Shown piece after piece: positions 7,752-16,729 of a DNA stretch of 64,000 nucleotides. The first letter of the stretch is position 1, and each line of letters opens with the position of its first letter. Both the position numbers and the translations under genes were made by a program. The DNA lies in sequence record OQ599310. One strand, 5' to 3'. This DNA is from Escherichia phage 55. Under the pieces are notes generated by a model. The model did no database searches and was not told the DNA's origin. It was given only the letters and a program-made list of their open reading frames with translations.

Positions 7752-10700
7752 TTATGCTAAACGAACGATATAGTTAAAAGCAACGTTTTTAACTGTGTTT
7801 TCTGTATTTCCTGTGGCATTTACAGTTATTGTATGTCCATGGGAACCAATTGCAACAGTATGAGAATGAGCACCAATACCTACCGAATGGGTATGAGCAC
7901 CAATACCTACCGTATGAGCATGGTTACCCGTAGAGCTAGTAGTTCCTGACCAACTATGGGTGTGGGCACCGTCATTTGATGTTTTACCGACCTTAGTTGC
8001 TAAAGTCGAACCAGTGATACCTGAGTTAATTTTAGCATATGAGTTTGCACCTATCGTAGTAACCCCGTCTCTAAACAAACCGTCTGCCCATGCAGCAATG
8101 ACCTGTGGACCTGAACGCGCGTGTTGGTGAGCTCCTGCGGAACTAGTATTACCACTCACTGTATGGGTATGGTTACCAGTGGTATTACTGGTCTTAGTAC
8201 CATAATCAAATCTTGAAGTCGTTTTGCTACCGTAATCAAAACTAGAAGTGGTCTTAGTACCCAAATCTGTGCTTGATGCACTTGCACTATGGCTATGTGA
8301 CTTAACACCGTCTGCTTCTGTACTTAATACAGCGCGCCCAGATGGTTTACCCTTGATAGTTTGACCACGCATATCAGGCAGAGCGCCAGAAGGATACACC
8401 GCAGCTAACTTAGGATACAAGCCAGTATCAAATGTTTGGCCTTCCATTATGGCATAACCTTCAGGAGGTGTATCAGTAGGCCAAGGAATCGGAGCACCAA
8501 TTGGATAACTTGAGACAATATCAGTTTTAAGTGATTCAATTGTACTATTTAAGTTGGCAAAATTACCAGAACCACCAGTAATGTTACCGTCTGTACCTAA
8601 ATAAACTGAACCCCCAGCAGAAATGCGCTTAGGAGATATAAAATCACCAGAACGTGTAAATTCCCAGCCTAAATCTTTTATAGTTGCGCCTGTTGAACTT
8701 CCGTCTCCACCTTCATGATAATGAACTCTGAAGTTACCGCCATTTATTAAAGTACCTAAAGAATAACAGCTATTTCCTTGAACATAACGTTGTTTTAAAA
8801 TAGGAACGTAAGTACTTGTATCTGTGCGATTAATATTCATATAGAACGGAGCACGAACGTTTTCATTATTTTGTGAAGCAAAAGACCCTGCACCAGCCGG
8901 GCGAACGGTGTCAGTACATTCAGCATCAATATAAGCTGCTTGTCCTACCTGCATACGGTAATTAGGAGAAATACGACTATGACTAGTAACAACAACAAGT
9001 TTGTTATCATTGTCCACAGTAATCATATTACCGCCAGCGCCATCATCGCCTAACGTGACAGAATGGCGCATTTGTACCATACCATTATTAAGACTAATAC
9101 TTAATGGACGGAGATTGCTTATTCCACCTGATTCTCCAGCATCTTTAGGAGTCGGGATAATATGCAATGCCGCCTCTGAACGACGGAAAATAGCACCATA
9201 TTCAGCATTCCAAATTCTTAACGCATCTGCAGTTCCGCCAAACTTAGCCTGGCCATTTACTGTCATGCCATTATTAACACTCAAAGAAGATTCAGTTGTA
9301 ATAGAACCAGAAGCAACAATACTACCTGAAGTTAATAAACCGCCATTAACTCGGAATTGAATAGGTCCGACAGTAGAACCTACACCAGGAGCAACTCGTT
9401 GAGAATAAAAATGGTAACCTTGTCCATCTGATACTTCAAAAACTGTTTCACGGGAATGATCGCCAGATGCGTTAAAGGCATTACCCCATGCTTTAACAGT
9501 TACATAACTCTTATTCTGGCCTGCTCGAGTGCCGCCTTCCCAAAGGATTTGTTTGGTGCCATCAATCGTGGTAGTTGCTGAAAAAGTCAAACCTGCTGTT
9601 GAGTTATTAGCTGCTAAATATACGCCGTTATATATTGAAAGCTGCTTAACAGATGTAATACCGCCATCAGCATAAAACCTTACATTATTAGCGCCTGTTA
9701 CTAGTTTAAGAACACCGGGGTTAATTTCCATACCTTCTTGGGTATTAATATTCATTTGGCCTTTACCGCGGAAATAGTGCGACATTTTTCCACCAGAGTT
9801 ATAGCCAATATGCGTCCGACCGTCCCCTGCGTTATTCACATCCGCTTGAGTTTGGACTGATAAAAATGCAGCATTAGTACCAGGCATAATCCATGTAGTG
9901 CCTTGGTCTTCTGAACGTCCAAATAACGCTTTACGAGTACTACGGAAACTGTCAGGAGTAATAGAAGCAACAGAATAACCACCGCCAACTAAATCATAAA
10001 CTCCTTGTTTAATATATTTCAGACCTGTTACAGTGTCACCGAGAACAAGATACTTATCGCCCATTACACCGACGTTACCATAATCGCTAGACGGGAAATC
10101 TGTAGTGAATGTACCTAATGCAAGGCTATTACGGCCAGCCATTCGACCATCATTACGAATACCATACTGTTTTGACTGTGGAGTATTACCTGTCCACCAA
10201 GACATTTCATCAGCTTGGCCTAATTGAGCAGTACAAAGCTCATGCCACATAGTGCCACCGGATTTGGCACGAACTCTACGAAGATAGTTTACACCATTCG
10301 TTTCACCGGTGCCTGGGTATACATAGTTAACTAATGAATCCGTATCATATACACCAAAGGCTTTTCCACCGTGAATAACTGTATCAACTGCAATGCGTTT
10401 AGTTACTAACGAATCTGATGCTAAAATACGGTTAGCCTGAAATTCGCCTCCATTTATAGAACGGAAATAGAATTCACTATTAGTAGTGCTTCCTGTTCCT
10501 TGTCTAACCCTAAGGCGTATTTCACCATCAGTTGTAGTTTGAGGACGAGCATATATAACGCCTCGTTCAGTGCCATCGGCATTTTCAAACCATAAATGGG
10601 CATTTGCAGTATCGTTTGTTGCTCTTGTATAAAATGAACCCTGTGTAGATCTGAAAACTTTTGCAGTTACGCCATCAGTAGAACCAATTGGTCCGTTTAC

Positions 10701-10943
10701 AGTCATTCCACCTGTTTGTACATAATCGCCATTTAATCTCAAAAGTCCGTTAATAGTAACGTTGCCGTCAACTTGCCCGCCCTTAGCAAAGCCTAGGCTA
10801 ATAATATTACCGAGGTCATCTTTAGTAAAAAGAGTTCGATCCTTTAAGTTTATCGCTAATTCGCCTTCGGCTAATTGTGCTGCAGTAGGATTAACTCCTG
10901 CCACTTTGCTTCTTTTAAATTGTATCTGTTTTAATGTAGCCAT
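7752..10943 (-). CDS. 37: gp37 long tail fibre distal subunit (receptor-binding tip)
   Basis: 1063 aa; C-terminal His-x-His repeats ([25 protein letters not shown]) as in T4 gp37; position between 36 and 38. Confidence 0.93.
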
Positions 10944-10951
10944 AAGTCCTC

Positions 10952-11617
10952 TTAATAATAGCCGAAATCTTGAACAGAATCTTTAATTACAATCTGGTCG
11001 AAACGAGGAACATGATTAGCCTCAGACGCCGGATTCTGTGAGAAAAAGTTTGGTGCTGTTAAAGTACCAGTCATGGTATCGCCTTTACGCAATACACGGG
11101 AATTTGCGTTATCCGTAACAATATTTATTCGTCCATCAACATAGTCCTTTCTAGTAAGGTCATTCGCTGCTATAGGAGCAGCTGCATCACTTCTTACTTG
11201 ACCTGCCGCAGACACAACACCTTTTGTATTAATATCACCATTACGTGCATTAATTACAACAGTTCGGGCTGCTGAACCTTGCGATGATTTAAAACCAATA
11301 CCATTCCATGAAACAATATCGATATTTGCTACAGCAAAAGTAGCATTATCACCGTTACCTGGATAAATACCGCACGGGTTTGTGTTGTTTACAGCATACG
11401 GGACTTGAACGCCGCCGTTAAATGTTACCTTTGATGCATACGTACCACCATTAGCTTTAGAAACGAAATCGTTATCAGCCGCTTGTGGTTTATTATATTC
11501 TGAATAGAGTTTAAACGTTTTATACAGGACGTCATCACCTGCTGGCATTAAAGGGAAATTACCTTGATGCCATATAACAGCACCGCCAGTTGTACTACCA
11601 GCTTTTAAATCGGCCAT
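10952..11617 (-). CDS. 36: gp36 long tail fibre hinge connector
   Basis: 221 aa, same size and position as T4 gp36. Confidence 0.88.
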
Positions 11618-11642
11618 AGTTGTCTCCTTATATGTATACCAT

Positions 11643-11650
11643 ATTTATAC
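11643..11650 (-). promoter_or_regulatory. late promoter TATAAATA for gene 36
   Basis: Reverse complement of tatttata 11643-11650, just upstream of the gene 36 start at 11617. Confidence 0.55.
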
Positions 11651-11656
11651 AAAAAT

Positions 11657-11674
11657 GGGAGACCGAAGTCTCCC
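11657..11674. terminator. hairpin GGGAGAC-cgaa-GTCTCCC after gene 35
   Basis: Perfect 7-bp stem with tetraloop; same hairpin sequence recurs at 59266-59283. Confidence 0.6.
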
Positions 11675-11679
11675 TAAAT

Positions 11680-12807
11680 TTATTCTGATGCTTCTTTAAA
11701 TTCTTGTCCAAATACCTTACCAGTATTAGTTGAAGATTGAGTAGGTAATGTCATTATGTCTGGAGCACTTAAAGATTCTGAAACATAATTTACACGAATA
11801 CCATTTATACCAAACTCAGCAGGTTTTGAAACGCTTCCATTGCATGATACTTCAGTGAATATAACGTTTCTTAATCCACCTTGCCCGACTGGAGCTGTAC
11901 GATAACAATAAATCGTGAACCCGTCAGCACCAGCAGGAATTTCTATGTAGTCTTCATATATCTTCCATTCACCTGCAGCCCCATCAAAGTTTGTATCCTT
12001 AAATGAAATAGGTGAAGTAGAAGGAGATTTAAAGAAACGAATAGAAAGTCGTGTCGTCCCTTGTGCTAACAAATCGGCATCAGCCATTAGTTGGAATTTC
12101 ATATAAAGGAAATCTCCAGGCTTCAATTTATACCCAGCGAGAGGTGTAATAACGGACGTTGTAGGCATCCTTTTAATTTCGTTATTAGTACCTCCAATGG
12201 CAGATAAAAATGTGTCTGACGATTCATATGTACGTCTAGGGAAGCCGGTCGCACCAATATCATCGATCGTGTCGTACACAACATCAAGTGGTGTACTATA
12301 GTCGGTTGAAGTTTTCTTATTACTATACTTAATATGTTCTAGCGCTATAGCATTCTTACCAGAAATATAAAATGCAGAATAAGAAATGTCCACTATATTT
12401 AAAACTTGTTGAGCTAATGGAATAGCAGAACTCCCAGCTTTAGTAAACCATGCAAGAACTTCTGGTGGAAAGTTTGTTTTAGCGTTAGTAACAAGAGCAA
12501 ATATAAAATTTGAAGCATATGTGTCCATGAAAGTAACAAATGCACTTGACGTGGCGTCGTTTTCAGTAGAGAAATTATATGACTTAGATTCAACTACTGC
12601 ACCTGTTGTAGGATTTATTACACGAACGTTTAATCCAACGGAAAAAACCTGGGACCCAAGTGGATTATCTTGGAACTTAATATAAGTAGGAGATGTTGAT
12701 AGCGGACAAGAGCCCGCTATGCTTAATTTAAATCGTACTGAATTGCTTTCCGATAAAAATGGCGTTTGGACGTATCCTTGTCCAAACTTAGCCATAAATT
12801 TTTCCAT
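11680..12807 (-). CDS. 35: gp35 long tail fibre hinge
   Basis: 375 aa; size and position as T4 gp35. Confidence 0.88.
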   Translation of the reverse strand: MEKFMAKFGQGYVQTPFLSESNSVRFKLSIAGSCPLSTSPTYIKFQDNPLGSQVFSVGLNVRVINPTTGAVVESKSYNFSTENDATSSAFVTFMDTYASNFIFALVTNAKTNFPPEVLAWFTKAGSSAIPLAQQVLNIVDISYSAFYISGKNAIALEHIKYSNKKTSTDYSTPLDVVYDTIDDIGATGFPRRTYESSDTFLSAIGGTNNEIKRMPTTSVITPLAGYKLKPGDFLYMKFQLMADADLLAQGTTRLSIRFFKSPSTSPISFKDTNFDGAAGEWKIYEDYIEIPAGADGFTIYCYRTAPVGQGGLRNVIFTEVSCNGSVSKPAEFGINGIRVNYVSESLSAPDIMTLPTQSSTNTGKVFGQEFKEASE

Positions 12808-12815
12808 AATACCTC

Positions 12816-15800
12816 TTATTCAATCCACTCAAATTTAACAGATTTATTCACAGGGTCTGGAATAATGCGGACATTACCAATCCTTAAGAAATCCCTTATT
12901 GTCAAGTTTCCGATTGTTGCATTATCAGAAGGTAAAGCACCAATATCAGAAGGTTGAGGAGGGTTTCCACCATCAAATACCTGAACAAAACTTGACCAAG
13001 AATTTTTAGTTTTCTGCCATGTACGAGTCCAACGGGTTGTACGTGCTTCCGGTGTCGTTGGATAAGTAATCCAATCTTGGTAAAGAGAATCAAGCGTATT
13101 ACCAAATTGAGTCAAAGTACCAGGAGATTTAACTTCTTCACCACGTTCTAAATATGGAAGCCCAGTCACTTCATTAGTTTTTTCAACCATTTTAAAATAA
13201 CCCGGGAACTGGTTATAAGTGGCTGAATCGTTAATATCGATTGACCAGAATCCTACATTATCAGATGTTGGCGCACGGGTATATAAATCGGATGTTTTAG
13301 TACCCTGAGAACGAATTCTCGAGTTAACAGTCAAACCGCCAGAATTTATAGTAGCACCATTGGCAATGATTAAGCCTTCACCAATTGTAATCTGACCGGA
13401 TTTGTTATTAATTGATAATGGACGTAATCCATTAAATCCACCAGTCTGATCACCAGATGCAGTAAGCATAAAATATGTGCTGCCGCCATCATTGCGAATA
13501 AAGAATCCGTAATCACCACTAATTACTCTGAAAGCATTTGCAGACTTGCTAATGAATTCACCATTGGCTGTAACTGAACGACCAAATGTTGCAACGCCAT
13601 TCGCATTTAACGTGCCTGAAGCGTTAACATTTATTGGCATCACAGTACCATTGATACTAAACGTTATATTCCCAGCTTTATTACGTTGAGAATAAAAGTG
13701 ATTAGATGTTTCATCGCCGACTTCAAATACAGTAGAACGCGTTGTATCTGAACCACCACCAAATTCATTTCCCCAAACTCTGATAGTCATCGTTTGAGCA
13801 GGATTTGTTCCAGTTTGAGGTCCTTTCTCAAAAATCAGACGAGTTGCCGTTCCAGTATTAGAAATAGTTAATGTACTATTTGCCGAAACTGAACCACCAA
13901 ACGTAGCAGTACTAGATGATACAAGAGGGGCACTCAGATTCGTTTGTTGGGTTAAGGTTAGTGAACCATTAACCGTCTGTGCAATGTCCCTACGAATGAA
14001 CTGAGATGAATCTAGACCATCTAATAAATTACTATCTACGGCTTTAGCTTTCAATGGCAAATAGTTAGCAAGTACACGGTTTAATTCATATGGAGATATA
14101 GCATAGCTATTTTTTTCATATGATTCTAAAGGTTGTGTTGAACCAACTGTATCATTACCAACGAATGTAATAGAACCAGATGAAGTTTTAACGAATCCAC
14201 GAATCGCCGTAGTAGCAGCCCATGTTGGTTCAGACTGGACAATCCATTTTAAATTCTTAGGAGATACAGCAGTATTAGCAGAAGTTCCTGTTACAGTTTC
14301 AGCCCGAGTAGCAACCTTAATTACGCCTTCAGACGTTTCAGTGGACTTAGTCCCTAAAAGCTTTTTAGGAGTAATAAGAACATCATCTAAAGTTCCTGCA
14401 TTAGATTCTGCCTGGGTCGCTACGCGAAGCGTACCACGTTGTGTTTCATTTGCTTTAGAAATATCAAGAGTATAATGGTTCCACAAGGTTCCTTCTTCAA
14501 TAAGTCCGGAATCAGAATTAACACTGGTACGGTCAGAAGAATCAAAATGAGTTTTAATTTTCAGTGGAGTTGAGATACGAGTATCGTCAGTTCCAGTATC
14601 AAATTCAACTTGCGTAGCAAGTTCGGCTATGCCGGATAATCCTTCCGTAGCTTTCCTATCATTTAATGTCTTAGGCGTTACTGCACGTGTATAATCAGTC
14701 CCAGCATTAGTTTCTGCTTGCGTAGCAATTTCAATTAAACCAATACGTCCATCAGTAGAAGTTTTCTTATGTAGTGTTTCAGGAGTTACTACAGCGTGAG
14801 AATAACCTGCTTGTGATTGACCAGCAATTACTTCACTATCAACAGCTAAAATTACTGCACCTTGTTGAGCATAAGTTGCTTTATATTGGTCAAGGGCTTT
14901 AGGAGAAATAGTTAACGTGGTTGTGTCTTTATTATAAACATTAGTGCCTGCAGCTCCACGAGTCGCGGCAGGTGTAGCAGAAGTAGTTGATACATATTTA
15001 ACTATACCAGATAGTGTTTCAGAACCCTGACGTGCCTGTAATTTCTTAGGTGTAATAATCGTTGTGTCATCAAGACCAGCATCTGTTTCAACCTGAGTAG
15101 CAATTTCAGCAAGACCGCGACGAGTTTCAGTTGCTGTACGCTCATTTAGTTTTTTAGGCGTAACAATAGTATCATCTACAAATGTTGCTGTGGAATTCTG
15201 GTTAACTTGTGCTGTTGTAGCAATTTTAGCGATACCACGTCGAGCTTCAGTTGCTGTACGATTTGCCAATGTTTCAGGAGTAATAGCCACTTCTTTAGCT
15301 GGAGTATTCTCTAAATCAACATTTGCTTGCGCTTGAGTAGCAAGAGCAATAACACCTAAACGAGCTCGTGTAGCATCAGTTCCAGCATCAACACGTTCTA
15401 CCGTAGGGACATTCTGTTGCACAACCCAATAACGTGTACCAGCAACGGTGTCTTCGATATACGCTAATTCTAATACAGGAACATATGAAGTAGTGCCATT
15501 GAATTCTAGTTCAGTAACAGAGACCCATTGAGCATCAGGTGGATATTCAGAACGTTTAGGGAACTGAAGCAATGCAACAGTGGAAGCAATTGTATCACCT
15601 TCGGCAGCTTTAATTTTTACTGTTTGGCCTTTACGCATGTAGTTCATTGAAATTTTAACAGTGTCACCACTCAAAATTCCGGTAGGCAGCGTAAGATTAA
15701 TAGTTCCGGTTGTAGCGTTATTTGTGCCAAAGATAAGAACTTCTTCATTTGGACGAATATTTGAATCCGCACGGATAATACGAAGACGCGATTTCTGGTC

Positions 15801-16691
15801 GCCTTCCCATATACGCCATAAACTATTTGCAGCATCAAAAACAAAAAACGCGTCAGAGTCATTTCTGCCTTCGGCAATATGAGTCCCGACTTCACCAATA
15901 GACGTTGTATCATCAAATGTTTTAACAATTGTATGATACAGTGGGTTTAATCTATCTAAATCGACTAGGCTGATTATATCACCATTGTTAGCATTACGTG
16001 GAAGTGTAATGTTGATTGGTGCTGCACTAGTAAAACGACGAACGATAAAATCATTTGCTTGTGCTTGATATGGTGTCGCAGGTGTAACAGTGATTGATTC
16101 TTTACCATAATCGGTAATATACATCTGCCACAAACGATTACTAAACACAAACAATAGTTGTGAACGTGGGCGCGTCATTAAAACCGTACGAACTTGTTCA
16201 CCTCTAAAGTTTAAAATACTCTGTACAGACGCGTTAATCTGTACTTTAACTGTCCCGGTTCGTCCACCAATATCAGCCAAAACAACAGTATCACCATCAA
16301 CTGGAGTATTTGGCAATGTAAAAACCATATCATTGCCGGCACCAGTGTTAACCGAAATCGATTCACCTGAAGAAAGTTGACAAGTCCCAGAAGCGACAGT
16401 TATCCATTGTGCATCAGTACGAACTGCACGCCATTGTAAAAGGTTAAATGCCCCGGAAGGAGACACGATATCATTTATTGCTTGATATAAACGGTTGTCA
16501 TAAAGAACAACAAATCCTTTGTTATATCCACGCGTAGAATCATATACTTGAACGGTGTTTTCTTGTACCAGGAAGTCAACGTTTACGCCATCAGTACCTA
16601 CTGTACGGTCGGCTAATGCTACGTTAACAATCTTGTCGCCACCGGCGTCCAGACCGTCTTCGGCTCTGAACTTACGTTTGATGTCGGCCAT
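12816..16691 (-). CDS. 34: gp34 long tail fibre proximal subunit
   Basis: 1291 aa; size and position as T4 gp34 (about 1289 aa). Confidence 0.93.
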   Translation of the reverse strand: MADIKRKFRAEDGLDAGGDKIVNVALADRTVGTDGVNVDFLVQENTVQVYDSTRGYNKGFVVLYDNRLYQAINDIVSPSGAFNLLQWRAVRTDAQWITVASGTCQLSSGESISVNTGAGNDMVFTLPNTPVDGDTVVLADIGGRTGTVKVQINASVQSILNFRGEQVRTVLMTRPRSQLLFVFSNRLWQMYITDYGKESITVTPATPYQAQANDFIVRRFTSAAPINITLPRNANNGDIISLVDLDRLNPLYHTIVKTFDDTTSIGEVGTHIAEGRNDSDAFFVFDAANSLWRIWEGDQKSRLRIIRADSNIRPNEEVLIFGTNNATTGTINLTLPTGILSGDTVKISMNYMRKGQTVKIKAAEGDTIASTVALLQFPKRSEYPPDAQWVSVTELEFNGTTSYVPVLELAYIEDTVAGTRYWVVQQNVPTVERVDAGTDATRARLGVIALATQAQANVDLENTPAKEVAITPETLANRTATEARRGIAKIATTAQVNQNSTATFVDDTIVTPKKLNERTATETRRGLAEIATQVETDAGLDDTTIITPKKLQARQGSETLSGIVKYVSTTSATPAATRGAAGTNVYNKDTTTLTISPKALDQYKATYAQQGAVILAVDSEVIAGQSQAGYSHAVVTPETLHKKTSTDGRIGLIEIATQAETNAGTDYTRAVTPKTLNDRKATEGLSGIAELATQVEFDTGTDDTRISTPLKIKTHFDSSDRTSVNSDSGLIEEGTLWNHYTLDISKANETQRGTLRVATQAESNAGTLDDVLITPKKLLGTKSTETSEGVIKVATRAETVTGTSANTAVSPKNLKWIVQSEPTWAATTAIRGFVKTSSGSITFVGNDTVGSTQPLESYEKNSYAISPYELNRVLANYLPLKAKAVDSNLLDGLDSSQFIRRDIAQTVNGSLTLTQQTNLSAPLVSSSTATFGGSVSANSTLTISNTGTATRLIFEKGPQTGTNPAQTMTIRVWGNEFGGGSDTTRSTVFEVGDETSNHFYSQRNKAGNITFSINGTVMPINVNASGTLNANGVATFGRSVTANGEFISKSANAFRVISGDYGFFIRNDGGSTYFMLTASGDQTGGFNGLRPLSINNKSGQITIGEGLIIANGATINSGGLTVNSRIRSQGTKTSDLYTRAPTSDNVGFWSIDINDSATYNQFPGYFKMVEKTNEVTGLPYLERGEEVKSPGTLTQFGNTLDSLYQDWITYPTTPEARTTRWTRTWQKTKNSWSSFVQVFDGGNPPQPSDIGALPSDNATIGNLTIRDFLRIGNVRIIPDPVNKSVKFEWIE

Positions 16692-16721: not shown

Positions 16722-16729
16722 TATTTATA
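16722..16729 (-). promoter_or_regulatory. late promoter TATAAATA for gene 34
   Basis: Reverse complement of tatttata 16722-16729, about 30 bp upstream of the gene 34 start. Confidence 0.55.

What the first reader, a model, noticed from the sequence alone, without database searches (positions are those of the whole stretch)
7752..8100. gp37 C-terminal His-x-His repeat tip paired with a T4-type gp38
The receptor-binding tip of gp37 (minus strand, low coordinates) has repeated HxH motifs ([34 protein letters not shown]) like the iron-coordinating needle of T4 gp37, but the protein is about 37 residues longer than T4's, with a divergent distal region. Since gp38 is the short T4-type assembly protein rather than a T2-type adhesin, host range is predicted to be set by this gp37 tip.
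Basis: partly seen in the sequence, partly recalled or inferred. Interest (0 to 1): 0.4.

Follow-up and report, generated by a model that had tools for sequence, protein, structure and literature searches.

The report
T4-type tail-fibre tip, longer needle
This is the ordinary receptor-binding end of a T4-like phage's long tail fibre together with its folding chaperone, a known variant with one extra metal-binding rung and a swapped-in head that is already present in about a dozen sequenced coliphages.

Summary
Window 7752-10943 (-) encodes a 1063-aa gp37, and 7170-7721 (-) encodes a 183-aa gp38 that is 66% identical to the T4 chaperone. The quoted His-x-His string is residues 1006-1039.

All 37 extra residues relative to T4 lie in the tip:
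- +10: an extra [10 protein letters not shown] unit on the ascending limb of the needle.
- +18: a larger, unrelated head.
- +9: an extra GIGAHTHSV His box on the descending limb.

This gives 8 HxH motifs against 7 in T4. The interpretation, that the gp37 head and not gp38 sets host range, is supported by homology and by the literature.

The feature is not new. The window is from a Mosigvirus. Its gp37 is 99% identical to that of phage vB_EcoM_SA79RD. The same head allele is in 17 phage records, and the same 8-HxH needle is in AV117 and AV118, both shown experimentally to use OmpC.

Two things were added here. The head is a cassette bounded by His boxes and exchanged between phages. Across 244 homologues, needle length varies by matched rungs on both limbs.

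Most likely receptor: OmpC, possibly with LPS. This is inferred, not tested. Interest is low.

The parts
7752..10943 (-). gene 37, distal long-tail-fibre subunit, 1063 aa
   Evidence: ORF. 71% identical to T4 gp37. 99% identical to SA79RD gp37. phrog_1699 E = 8.6e-282.
7755..8588 (-). Receptor-binding tip module, residues 786-1063 (collar, needle, head)
   Evidence: Matches PDB 2XGF end to end, E = 3.9e-90.
8355..8498 (-). Collar domain, residues 816-863
   Evidence: Pfam PF07484 Collar, E = 4.6e-11, 42.9 bits against a cut-off of 24.
8121..8354 (-). Ascending limb of the needle, residues 864-941, with HxH 1-3 (H883/885, H925/927, H939/941)
   Evidence: HxH positions. Aligned with T4 H883, H915 and H929.
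8202..8231 (-). Extra 10-aa ascending unit [10 protein letters not shown] (residues 905-914), absent from T4
   Evidence: 10-residue gap in T4 in the BLASTP, HMMER and MAFFT alignments. 23 of 30 nt identical to the neighbouring unit.
7965..8120 (-). Head domain and exchangeable cassette, residues 942-993 (T4 equivalent 932-965, 18 aa shorter). Putative receptor-contact surface.
   Evidence: Residues 951-1000 are 18% identical to T4. Against phiEC1 and JS09 there are 9-19 mismatches per 30 nt in the blocks covering residues 945-994, and mostly 0-3 in the blocks on either side. Allele shared at 90% or more with 17 phage records; the next best is below 58%.
7755..7964 (-). Descending limb of the needle and C-terminus, residues 994-1063, with HxH 4-8
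   Evidence: The last 28 residues after the final HxH are conserved with T4.
7881..7907 (-). Extra 9-aa His box GIGAHTHSV (residues 1013-1021), absent from T4
   Evidence: 9-residue gap in T4. 27-nt tandem repeat, 2.4 copies, at 7858-7922. 22 of 27 nt identical to the next unit.
7170..7721 (-). gene 38, T4-type tail-fibre assembly chaperone, 183 aa
   Evidence: 66% identical to T4 gp38 and the same length. Pfam Caudo_TAP 22.2 bits against a cut-off of 22.1. phrog_105 E = 5.2e-49. 97-100% identical in Aplg8, LH01, SA79RD and JS09.
7727..7750 (-). UUCG-loop hairpin in the g37-g38 spacer, between an AAGGAG motif and the g38 AUG
   Evidence: RNA fold of 7715-7765 (-): -15.1 kcal/mol, z = -2.86. 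T4 has the equivalent GGGGC-UUCG-GCCC at the same place.
6501..7160 (-). gene t, holin (context: downstream neighbour, as in T4)
   Evidence: Pfam Phage_holin_T, E = 1.1e-90. T4 gene order 34-35-36-37-38-t.
10952..11617 (-). gene 36, distal hinge connector (context: upstream neighbour)
   Evidence: Pfam Phage_T4_gp36, E = 2.7e-41.

Best explanation
This is the receptor-binding tip of a T4-type long tail fibre, with its dedicated folding chaperone gp38 encoded just downstream.

By homology with the solved T4 tip, three gp37 chains run from a collar up a thin six-stranded beta needle. They intertwine into a small head that touches the host receptor, then run back down the needle. Each HxH motif from the three chains would form one octahedral metal (iron) site on the needle axis, so this fibre is predicted to hold 8 sites against 7 in T4.

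The needle is one rung longer than in T4, because a 10-aa unit was added on the way up and a 9-aa His box on the way down. The head is 18 aa larger and unrelated in sequence to T4's. It is a cassette bounded by His boxes that phages exchange by recombination.

gp38 helps trimerise and fold the tip and is not part of the virion, so host range is set by the gp37 head. The most likely primary receptor is OmpC, possibly with an LPS contribution.

Shown here: homology, motif architecture, cassette boundaries, chaperone type.
Inferred: metal occupancy, trimer geometry, chaperone behaviour, receptor identity.
For: - The tip matches PDB 2XGF at E = 3.9e-90 over its whole length.
- The collar is a Pfam Collar domain.
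- There are 8 HxH motifs using all 16 tip histidines; none of 100,000 shuffles reaches 8.
- The +10, +18 and +9 insertions account exactly for the 37 extra residues, because residue 786 is aligned in both proteins.
- In 241 of 244 homologous fibre C-termini, the first HxH spacing is 12+10n, within one residue, where n is the number of terminal 9-residue spacings (n = 1-6). The number of 14-residue spacings is the same before and after the head. This is as expected if both limbs of one needle must stay in register.
- phiEC1 gp37 is 90-100% identical in every 50-residue block outside residues 951-1000, where it falls to 44%. Its nucleotide mismatches rise to 9-19 per 30 nt in the blocks covering residues 945-994, against 0-3 in the blocks immediately flanking them, and the divergent stretch ends at HxH3 and HxH4.
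- gp38 is 66% identical to T4 gp38, matches phrog_105 'tail fiber assembly', and does not vary with head allele.
- Literature: seven iron sites in the T4 needle, and head residues essential for plating (PMC6957217). Mosigvirus phages with T4-like gp37 and gp38 differ mainly in the head, and AV117 and AV118 need OmpC (PMC10844046). These two have the same 8-HxH needle as the window. [quoted passage not shown] Seventeen OmpC-specific Straboviridae show extensive allelic variation in the tip (preprint 10.64898/2026.04.02.716166).
Against: - No structure could be obtained. The AlphaFold2 monomer model is unreliable outside the collar (mean pLDDT 52.9, needle and head below 50), so the 8-site needle and the head fold are inferred from sequence only.
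- No phage carrying this head allele has a published receptor that I could find.
- The phages with proven OmpC use carry other head alleles. The window's head differs completely from those of AV117 and AV118, and phages with the JS09-type head allele are 53-58% identical to the window's over the 64-aa cassette query.
- PMC10844046 suggests at least one Mosigvirus with T4-like gp37 (AV116) may depend on LPS instead.
- The Pfam hit for gp38 only just reaches the cut-off (22.2 against 22.1 bits).
Confidence: 0.9

Rival explanations
1. The architecture is the same (T4-type tip plus chaperone), but this head allele recognises something other than OmpC: the LPS core alone, or another outer-membrane protein.
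For: The head cassette is unrelated in sequence to those of phages proven to use OmpC. AV116, a Mosigvirus with T4-like gp37, was proposed to depend on LPS (PMC10844046). T4 itself can use either OmpC or LPS (PMC6957217). Hosts of phages carrying this allele are varied: O157:H7, O26:H11, O121:H19, O140:H21, K-12, Shigella sonnei.
Against: Every T4-type gp37 tip with an outer-membrane protein receptor assigned in the papers read here targets OmpC, despite very different head sequences. LH01, which carries this allele, was isolated on K-12, which has OmpC and a rough LPS.
Confidence: 0.35
2. gp38 is a virion-borne adhesin, as in T2, T6 or S16, and it determines host range rather than gp37.
For: The gene sits where adhesin-type gp38 genes sit in T2-like phages.
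Against: It is 183 aa and 66% identical to the T4 chaperone. The only family hits are tail-fibre assembly families. There is no Pfam GP38 adhesin hit and no match to a solved gp38 adhesin. The sequence is the same in phages with different head alleles. gp37 carries its own complete head domain.
Confidence: 0.02
3. The HxH repeats are only conserved DNA or protein motifs that serve as recombination sites ('His boxes'), with no metal-binding structural role in this protein.
For: The cassette boundaries coincide with HxH3 and HxH4. The His-box region is a 27-nt tandem repeat.
Against: The homologous motifs in T4 coordinate iron in the crystal structure, and alanine substitution of H929 or H931 abolishes plaque formation (PMC6957217). 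In the 44-sequence alignment six of the eight HxH pairs are invariant, one is at least 90% conserved, and the motif at H939/941 is not among the conserved columns. The ascending and descending spacing rule argues for a structural constraint. The two roles are not exclusive.
Confidence: 0.03

Closest known systems
Bacteriophage T4 gp37 receptor-binding tip (PDB 2XGF) with T4 gp38 chaperone
   Same: Collar-needle-head order. HxH motifs at homologous positions. The last 28 residues after the final HxH are almost identical. Gene order 36-37-38-t. gp38 is the same length and 66% identical. A UUCG hairpin lies in the g37-g38 spacer.
   Different: 8 HxH motifs instead of 7. One extra matched rung (+10 aa ascending, +9 aa descending). 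The head is 18 aa longer and unrelated in sequence (18% identity over residues 951-1000). The genome background is Mosigvirus, not Tequatrovirus.
gp37 of Escherichia phages vB_EcoM_SA79RD and SA35RD (Mosigvirus, South African cattle, non-O157 STEC hosts)
   Same: 1063 aa, 99% identical, with the same needle and head allele. gp38 is 99% identical.
   Different: 12 substitutions in all. In the tip, the window has I949 where they have T, G955 where they have D, R911 where they have S, and HTH at 925-927 where they have HNH.
Mosigvirus phages AV117 and AV118 (OmpC shown experimentally; PMC10844046)
   Same: T4-type gp37 plus chaperone gp38. Identical needle plan, with HxH spacings 42, 14, head, 14, 9, 9, 9.
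   Different: Their heads are unrelated in sequence and shorter (HxH3 to HxH4 spacing of 37 and 35 residues, against 55 here).
T2/T6/S16-type gp38 adhesin system
   Same: Same locus, and the same overall task of placing a receptor-binding surface at the end of the long tail fibre.
   Different: In that system a roughly 260-aa gp38 with glycine-rich motifs caps gp37 and binds the receptor. Here gp38 is the 183-aa assembly protein and gp37 carries the head itself.
Side and tail fibre C-termini of lambdoid, Mu/P2-like and Felixounavirus phages (for example Bas63 LTF and STF) with Tfa chaperones
   Same: The same collar-needle-head module with HxH motifs recurs in hundreds of E. coli prophage fibre proteins. 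The number of HxH motifs scales with needle length (PMC12609058).
   Different: The N-terminal shafts and the virion attachment differ, as does the number of rungs (n = 1-6).

Membership tests
T4-type gp37 receptor-binding tip (2XGF fold) | End-to-end sequence homology with the solved tip | tested here: met
   phmmer E = 3.9e-90; query 786-1063 against chain 2-242.
T4-type gp37 receptor-binding tip (2XGF fold) | Phage tail collar domain preceding the needle | tested here: met
   PF07484, 42.9 bits against a cut-off of 24, residues 816-863.
T4-type gp37 receptor-binding tip (2XGF fold) | Paired histidines (HxH) on both limbs of the needle | tested here: met
   8 motifs, 3 before and 5 after the head. 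All 16 tip histidines are used. None of 100,000 shuffles reaches 8.
T4-type gp37 receptor-binding tip (2XGF fold) | Trimeric six-stranded needle with one metal ion per HxH triplet | not testable with these tools
   Only monomer prediction is available, and it failed for the needle and head (pLDDT below 50).
T4-type gp37 receptor-binding tip (2XGF fold) | The head domain binds the host receptor | not testable with these tools
   Needs adsorption or plating assays. Literature support comes only from T4, AV117 and AV118.
T4-type gp38 (tail-fibre assembly chaperone, Caudo_TAP / Tfa) | Sequence similarity to T4 gp38 and to assembly-protein families | tested here: met
   66% identity, 183 aa in both. 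Caudo_TAP 22.2 bits against a cut-off of 22.1. phrog_105 E = 5.2e-49.
T4-type gp38 (tail-fibre assembly chaperone, Caudo_TAP / Tfa) | Encoded immediately downstream of gene 37 and upstream of t | tested here: met
T4-type gp38 (tail-fibre assembly chaperone, Caudo_TAP / Tfa) | Absent from the mature virion; needed for gp37 trimerisation | not testable with these tools
   Requires virion proteomics or co-expression experiments.
T2/T6/S16-type gp38 adhesin | Protein of about 260 aa with glycine-rich motifs and hypervariable segments, matching adhesin families or structures | tested here: not met
   183 aa. Caudo_TAP is the only Pfam family at E <= 0.001. No PDB match other than weak glutathione-transferase hits.
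OmpC-specific T4-type tips | Dependence of infection on OmpC | not testable with these tools
   Inferred from AV117, AV118, T4 and Bas40, all of which carry other head alleles.

The most novel reading that the evidence does not exclude
The needle of these fibres could be an evolvable spacer. It is built from matched rungs (10 aa going up, 9 aa with an HxH coming down) whose number (1-6 in nature; 3 here, 2 in T4) would set how far the head projects. The window's extra rung, together with its two private head substitutions (T949I, which restores the isoleucine that is essential in T4 at I933, and D/N955G), could give a host range different from that of its 99%-identical relatives, for example better access to OmpC through the O-antigen layer of STEC strains.
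Probability: 0.12. Interest if true: 0.4.

Novelty: already known. Interest (0 to 1): 0.15.

Why it matters
Its practical value is modest. It says which roughly 50-residue cassette (residues about 942-993) to look at or swap when predicting or engineering the host range of this phage. It also says that gp38 can be left alone.

The rung-coupling rule is a useful design constraint for fibre engineering: insertions or deletions in the needle must be made on both limbs together. It also gives a simple sequence read-out of needle length and predicted metal content for hundreds of phage and prophage fibres.

None of this changes current understanding of T-even adsorption.

Tried and rejected
- AlphaFold2 on the 278-aa tip with a 44-sequence alignment gave mean pLDDT 52.9, with only the collar confident. 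The fold is an intertwined trimer and the tool predicts monomers, so no fold search was run on the model.
- NCBIfam gave no hit for gp37 or gp38.
- The PDB search with gp38 gave only weak glutathione-transferase matches (best E = 3e-4). I treat these as chance.
- The original structure paper (Bartual et al. 2010, PMC2996694) and Chen et al. 2017 (PMC5691408) are not held. Statements about the T4 structure therefore rest on PMC6957217, PMC12609058 and my own knowledge.
- Text searches for 'His box' and 'GXHXH' with gp37 found nothing. The His-box recombination model (Tetart, Krisch and colleagues, J Mol Biol 1996 and 1998) is cited from memory only.
- No paper was found giving a receptor for any phage with this head allele.
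- I considered that the window might be T4 or a Tequatrovirus. Rejected: the nearest genomes are Mosigvirus.
- I considered that the +37 aa might be spread along the shaft. Rejected: the shaft indels cancel, and residue 786 aligns with T4 residue 786.

Full report
**1. What is in the sequence**

The minus strand of window 6501-16691 carries the T-even long-tail-fibre block in the T4 order: gene 34 (12816-16691), 35 (11680-12807), 36 (10952-11617), 37 (7752-10943), 38 (7170-7721) and t (6501-7160).

- Gene 37 encodes 1063 aa. It is 71% identical to T4 gp37, which is 1026 aa.
- The whole C-terminal 278 residues match the crystal-structure sequence of the T4 receptor-binding tip (2XGF) at E = 3.9e-90. 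They begin with a Pfam Collar domain.
- All 16 histidines of this module are in eight HxH motifs. None of 100,000 shuffles gave eight; the mean was 0.86.

**2. Where the 37 extra residues are**

Indels in the shaft cancel: residue 786 aligns with T4 residue 786. The whole difference therefore sits in the tip.

| Change | Location | Sequence or spacing |
|---|---|---|
| +10 | between HxH1 and HxH2, ascending limb | extra unit [10 protein letters not shown], residues 905-914 |
| +18 | between HxH3 and HxH4, head | spacing 55 against 37 in T4 |
| +9 | descending limb | extra His box GIGAHTHSV, residues 1013-1021 |

At the DNA level the His boxes form a 27-nt tandem array. The duplicated units are 22/27 and 23/30 nt identical to their neighbours, so the duplications are old rather than recent.

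**3. Structural reading**

In T4 the chain goes up the needle, forms the head and comes back, giving a six-stranded needle with seven iron sites formed by HxH motifs (PMC6957217; PMC12609058). An insertion on one limb should then require a matching one on the other.

I tested this on homologous fibre C-termini, using 120 proteins and 150 representatives. Of these, 244 have a complete C-terminus.
- In 241 of the 244, the spacing from the first HxH to the next ascending HxH is 12+10n residues, within one residue, where n is the number of terminal 9-residue HxH spacings.
- The classes seen are n = 1 to 6: 22/1, 32/2 (T4), 42/3 (this window), 52/4, 62/5 and 73/6.
- The number of 14-residue spacings before the head equals the number after it (0/0, 1/1 or 2/2).
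- The three exceptions look like artefacts of my motif parsing: their parsed spacings (402, 0 and 84) are implausible, though I did not inspect the sequences.
- The head spacing varies independently, mostly between 33 and 70 residues.

The sequences are related, so this is not a formal probability. However, eleven distinct combinations all obey the rule.

The window's gp37 is therefore a three-rung needle, predicted to hold eight metal sites and to be about one rung longer than T4's. This is inference. The monomer AlphaFold2 model was unusable for the needle and head.

**4. The head is an exchangeable cassette**

- Against phiEC1, gp37 is 90-100% identical in every 50-residue block outside residues 951-1000, where it falls to 44%.
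- In nucleotides there are 9-19 mismatches per 30 nt in the blocks covering residues 945-994. The blocks immediately flanking them have 0-3.
- The boundaries fall at HxH3 (939-941) and HxH4 (994-996).
- Conversely, Aplg8 (a Tequatrovirus) and LH01 share the window's head (98%) but have very different shafts, 14-50% identical over residues 51-300.
- A tblastn search with the cassette gives a bimodal result: 17 phage records at 90-97% identity and 100 records below 58%. The 17 are FP43, LH01, SA79RD, SA35RD, ATK47, ATK48, Mizar, Aplg8, G53, KAW3E185, SHSML-52-1, PNJ-6 and ST0, some of them deposited twice.
- No record is identical. The window has private substitutions T949I and D/N955G.
- In the BLASTP alignment, I949 lines up with T4 I933, a residue whose alanine substitution abolishes plaque formation.

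This pattern fits the classical His-box recombination model for T-even adhesins. I cite that model from memory, because I could not retrieve the papers.

**5. gp38**

- It is 183 aa and 66% identical to T4 gp38 over 179 aligned residues.
- It matches Pfam Caudo_TAP just at the threshold and phrog_105 'tail fiber assembly' at E = 5.2e-49.
- It matches no adhesin family or structure.
- It is 100% identical in Aplg8 and LH01, 99% in SA79RD, and 97% in JS09, which carries the other head allele.

A protein that does not vary with the receptor-binding surface is behaving as a chaperone for the conserved parts of the tip, not as a specificity determinant.

**6. Genome background and prior knowledge**

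- The nearest records for the 37-38 region are vB_EcoM_SA79RD and SA35RD, at 98.9% nt and 99% aa for gp37. Both are Mosigvirus from South African cattle with STEC hosts.
- A 24-kb stretch elsewhere in the window is about 96% identical to Mosigvirus LH01 and to the LF82 phages.
- Vitt et al. (PMC10844046) describe exactly this arrangement in Mosigvirus AV110, 112, 113, 116, 117 and 118: T4-like gp37, a gp38 chaperone, and the main differences in the head domain. They show OmpC dependence for AV117 and AV118.
- I confirmed that AV117 and AV118 have the same 42-14-head-14-9-9-9 needle as the window, with different and shorter heads.
- The BASEL paper states that T4 and the other OmpC-targeting T-even phages carry the RBP at the C-terminal end of the distal half fibre (PMC8594841).
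[quoted passage not shown] **7. Mechanism and confidence**

Best explanation (0.9): a T4-type tip with an eight-site metal-stapled needle and a cassette head that binds the receptor. It is folded with the help of a non-structural gp38.

Receptor: OmpC is the best guess, at roughly 0.55-0.65, because every T4-type tip with an assigned protein receptor in the papers read uses it. No phage with this head allele has been tested, and LPS-only dependence has been proposed for AV116.

Rivals: a different receptor (0.35, nested within the main explanation); gp38 as adhesin (0.02); HxH motifs as recombination motifs only (0.03).

**8. Verdict**

The feature is a known arrangement in a phage 99% identical, at this gene, to annotated GenBank genomes.

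The only additions are descriptive: the exact partition of the 37 residues, the His-box-bounded head cassette, and the matched-rung rule for needle length.

Novelty: already known. Interest: 0.15.

Noticed in passing
window 7755-8354 (-), and proteins P0001-P0267: Needle-length rule across 244 homologous fibre C-termini. The first HxH spacing is 12+10n residues, where n (1-6) is the number of terminal 9-residue HxH spacings. The 14-residue spacings are equal in number before and after the head. It holds in 241 of 244. I did not find it stated in the papers read; PMC12609058 only remarks that HxH number may scale with needle length.
   Followed up: yes
window 7965-8120 (-), against L003 (phiEC1) and L005 (JS09): The head domain is a discrete recombination cassette bounded by HxH3 and HxH4. 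There are 9-19 mismatches per 30 nt inside it and 0-3 in the blocks immediately flanking it. There are two same-length alleles in Mosigvirus: the window type in 17 records and the JS09/phiEC1 type in many more.
   Followed up: yes
window 10344-10793 (-), gp37 residues 51-200: The N-terminal shaft of gp37 is 92-96% identical to T4, yet only 14-40% identical to other Mosigvirus or related phages (JS09, LH01, Aplg8). SA79RD and phiEC1 share the T4-like version. This suggests an intergeneric exchange of the proximal part of gene 37.
   Followed up: partly
window 7727-7750 (-): A UUCG-tetraloop hairpin (GAGAAGGGGC-UUCG-GUCCCUUUUU; -15.1 kcal/mol for the 51-nt stretch folded, z = -2.86) lies between an AAGGAG motif that overlaps the g37 stop codon and the g38 AUG, about 25 nt downstream. 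T4 has the equivalent hairpin at the same place. From memory, T4 gene 38 is a textbook case of a hairpin bringing a distant Shine-Dalgarno close to the start codon. Not tested here.
   Followed up: partly
window 11657-11674 (-): A second UUCG-loop hairpin (GGGAGAC-UUCG-GUCUCCC followed by a T-run) lies between genes 35 and 36 and looks like a terminator. A TATAAATA late-promoter motif sits at 11642-11649 just downstream. The SA79RD record annotates a terminator and a late promoter at the same place.
   Followed up: no
whole window: The T4 late-promoter motif TATAAATA occurs 15 times, against 7.2 expected; none of 100 shuffles reaches 15. Occurrences include 7181-7188 (-), inside the 3' end of g38 and upstream of t, and 16722-16729 (-), upstream of gene 34.
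   Followed up: no
whole window: No tRNA genes and no Rfam family above the gathering score anywhere in the 64 kb.
   Followed up: no
window 8163-8171 and 8211-8213 (-): There are private substitutions in the needle relative to the six relatives compared. HxH2 is HTH here but HNH in SA79RD, Aplg8, JS09, LH01 and phiEC1. Residue 911 is R here and S in all of them.
   Followed up: no
window 7170-7721 (-): gp38 residues 72-170 give a weak phmmer match to glutathione transferases (best E = 3e-4, 24 bits). This is probably chance or compositional.
   Followed up: no
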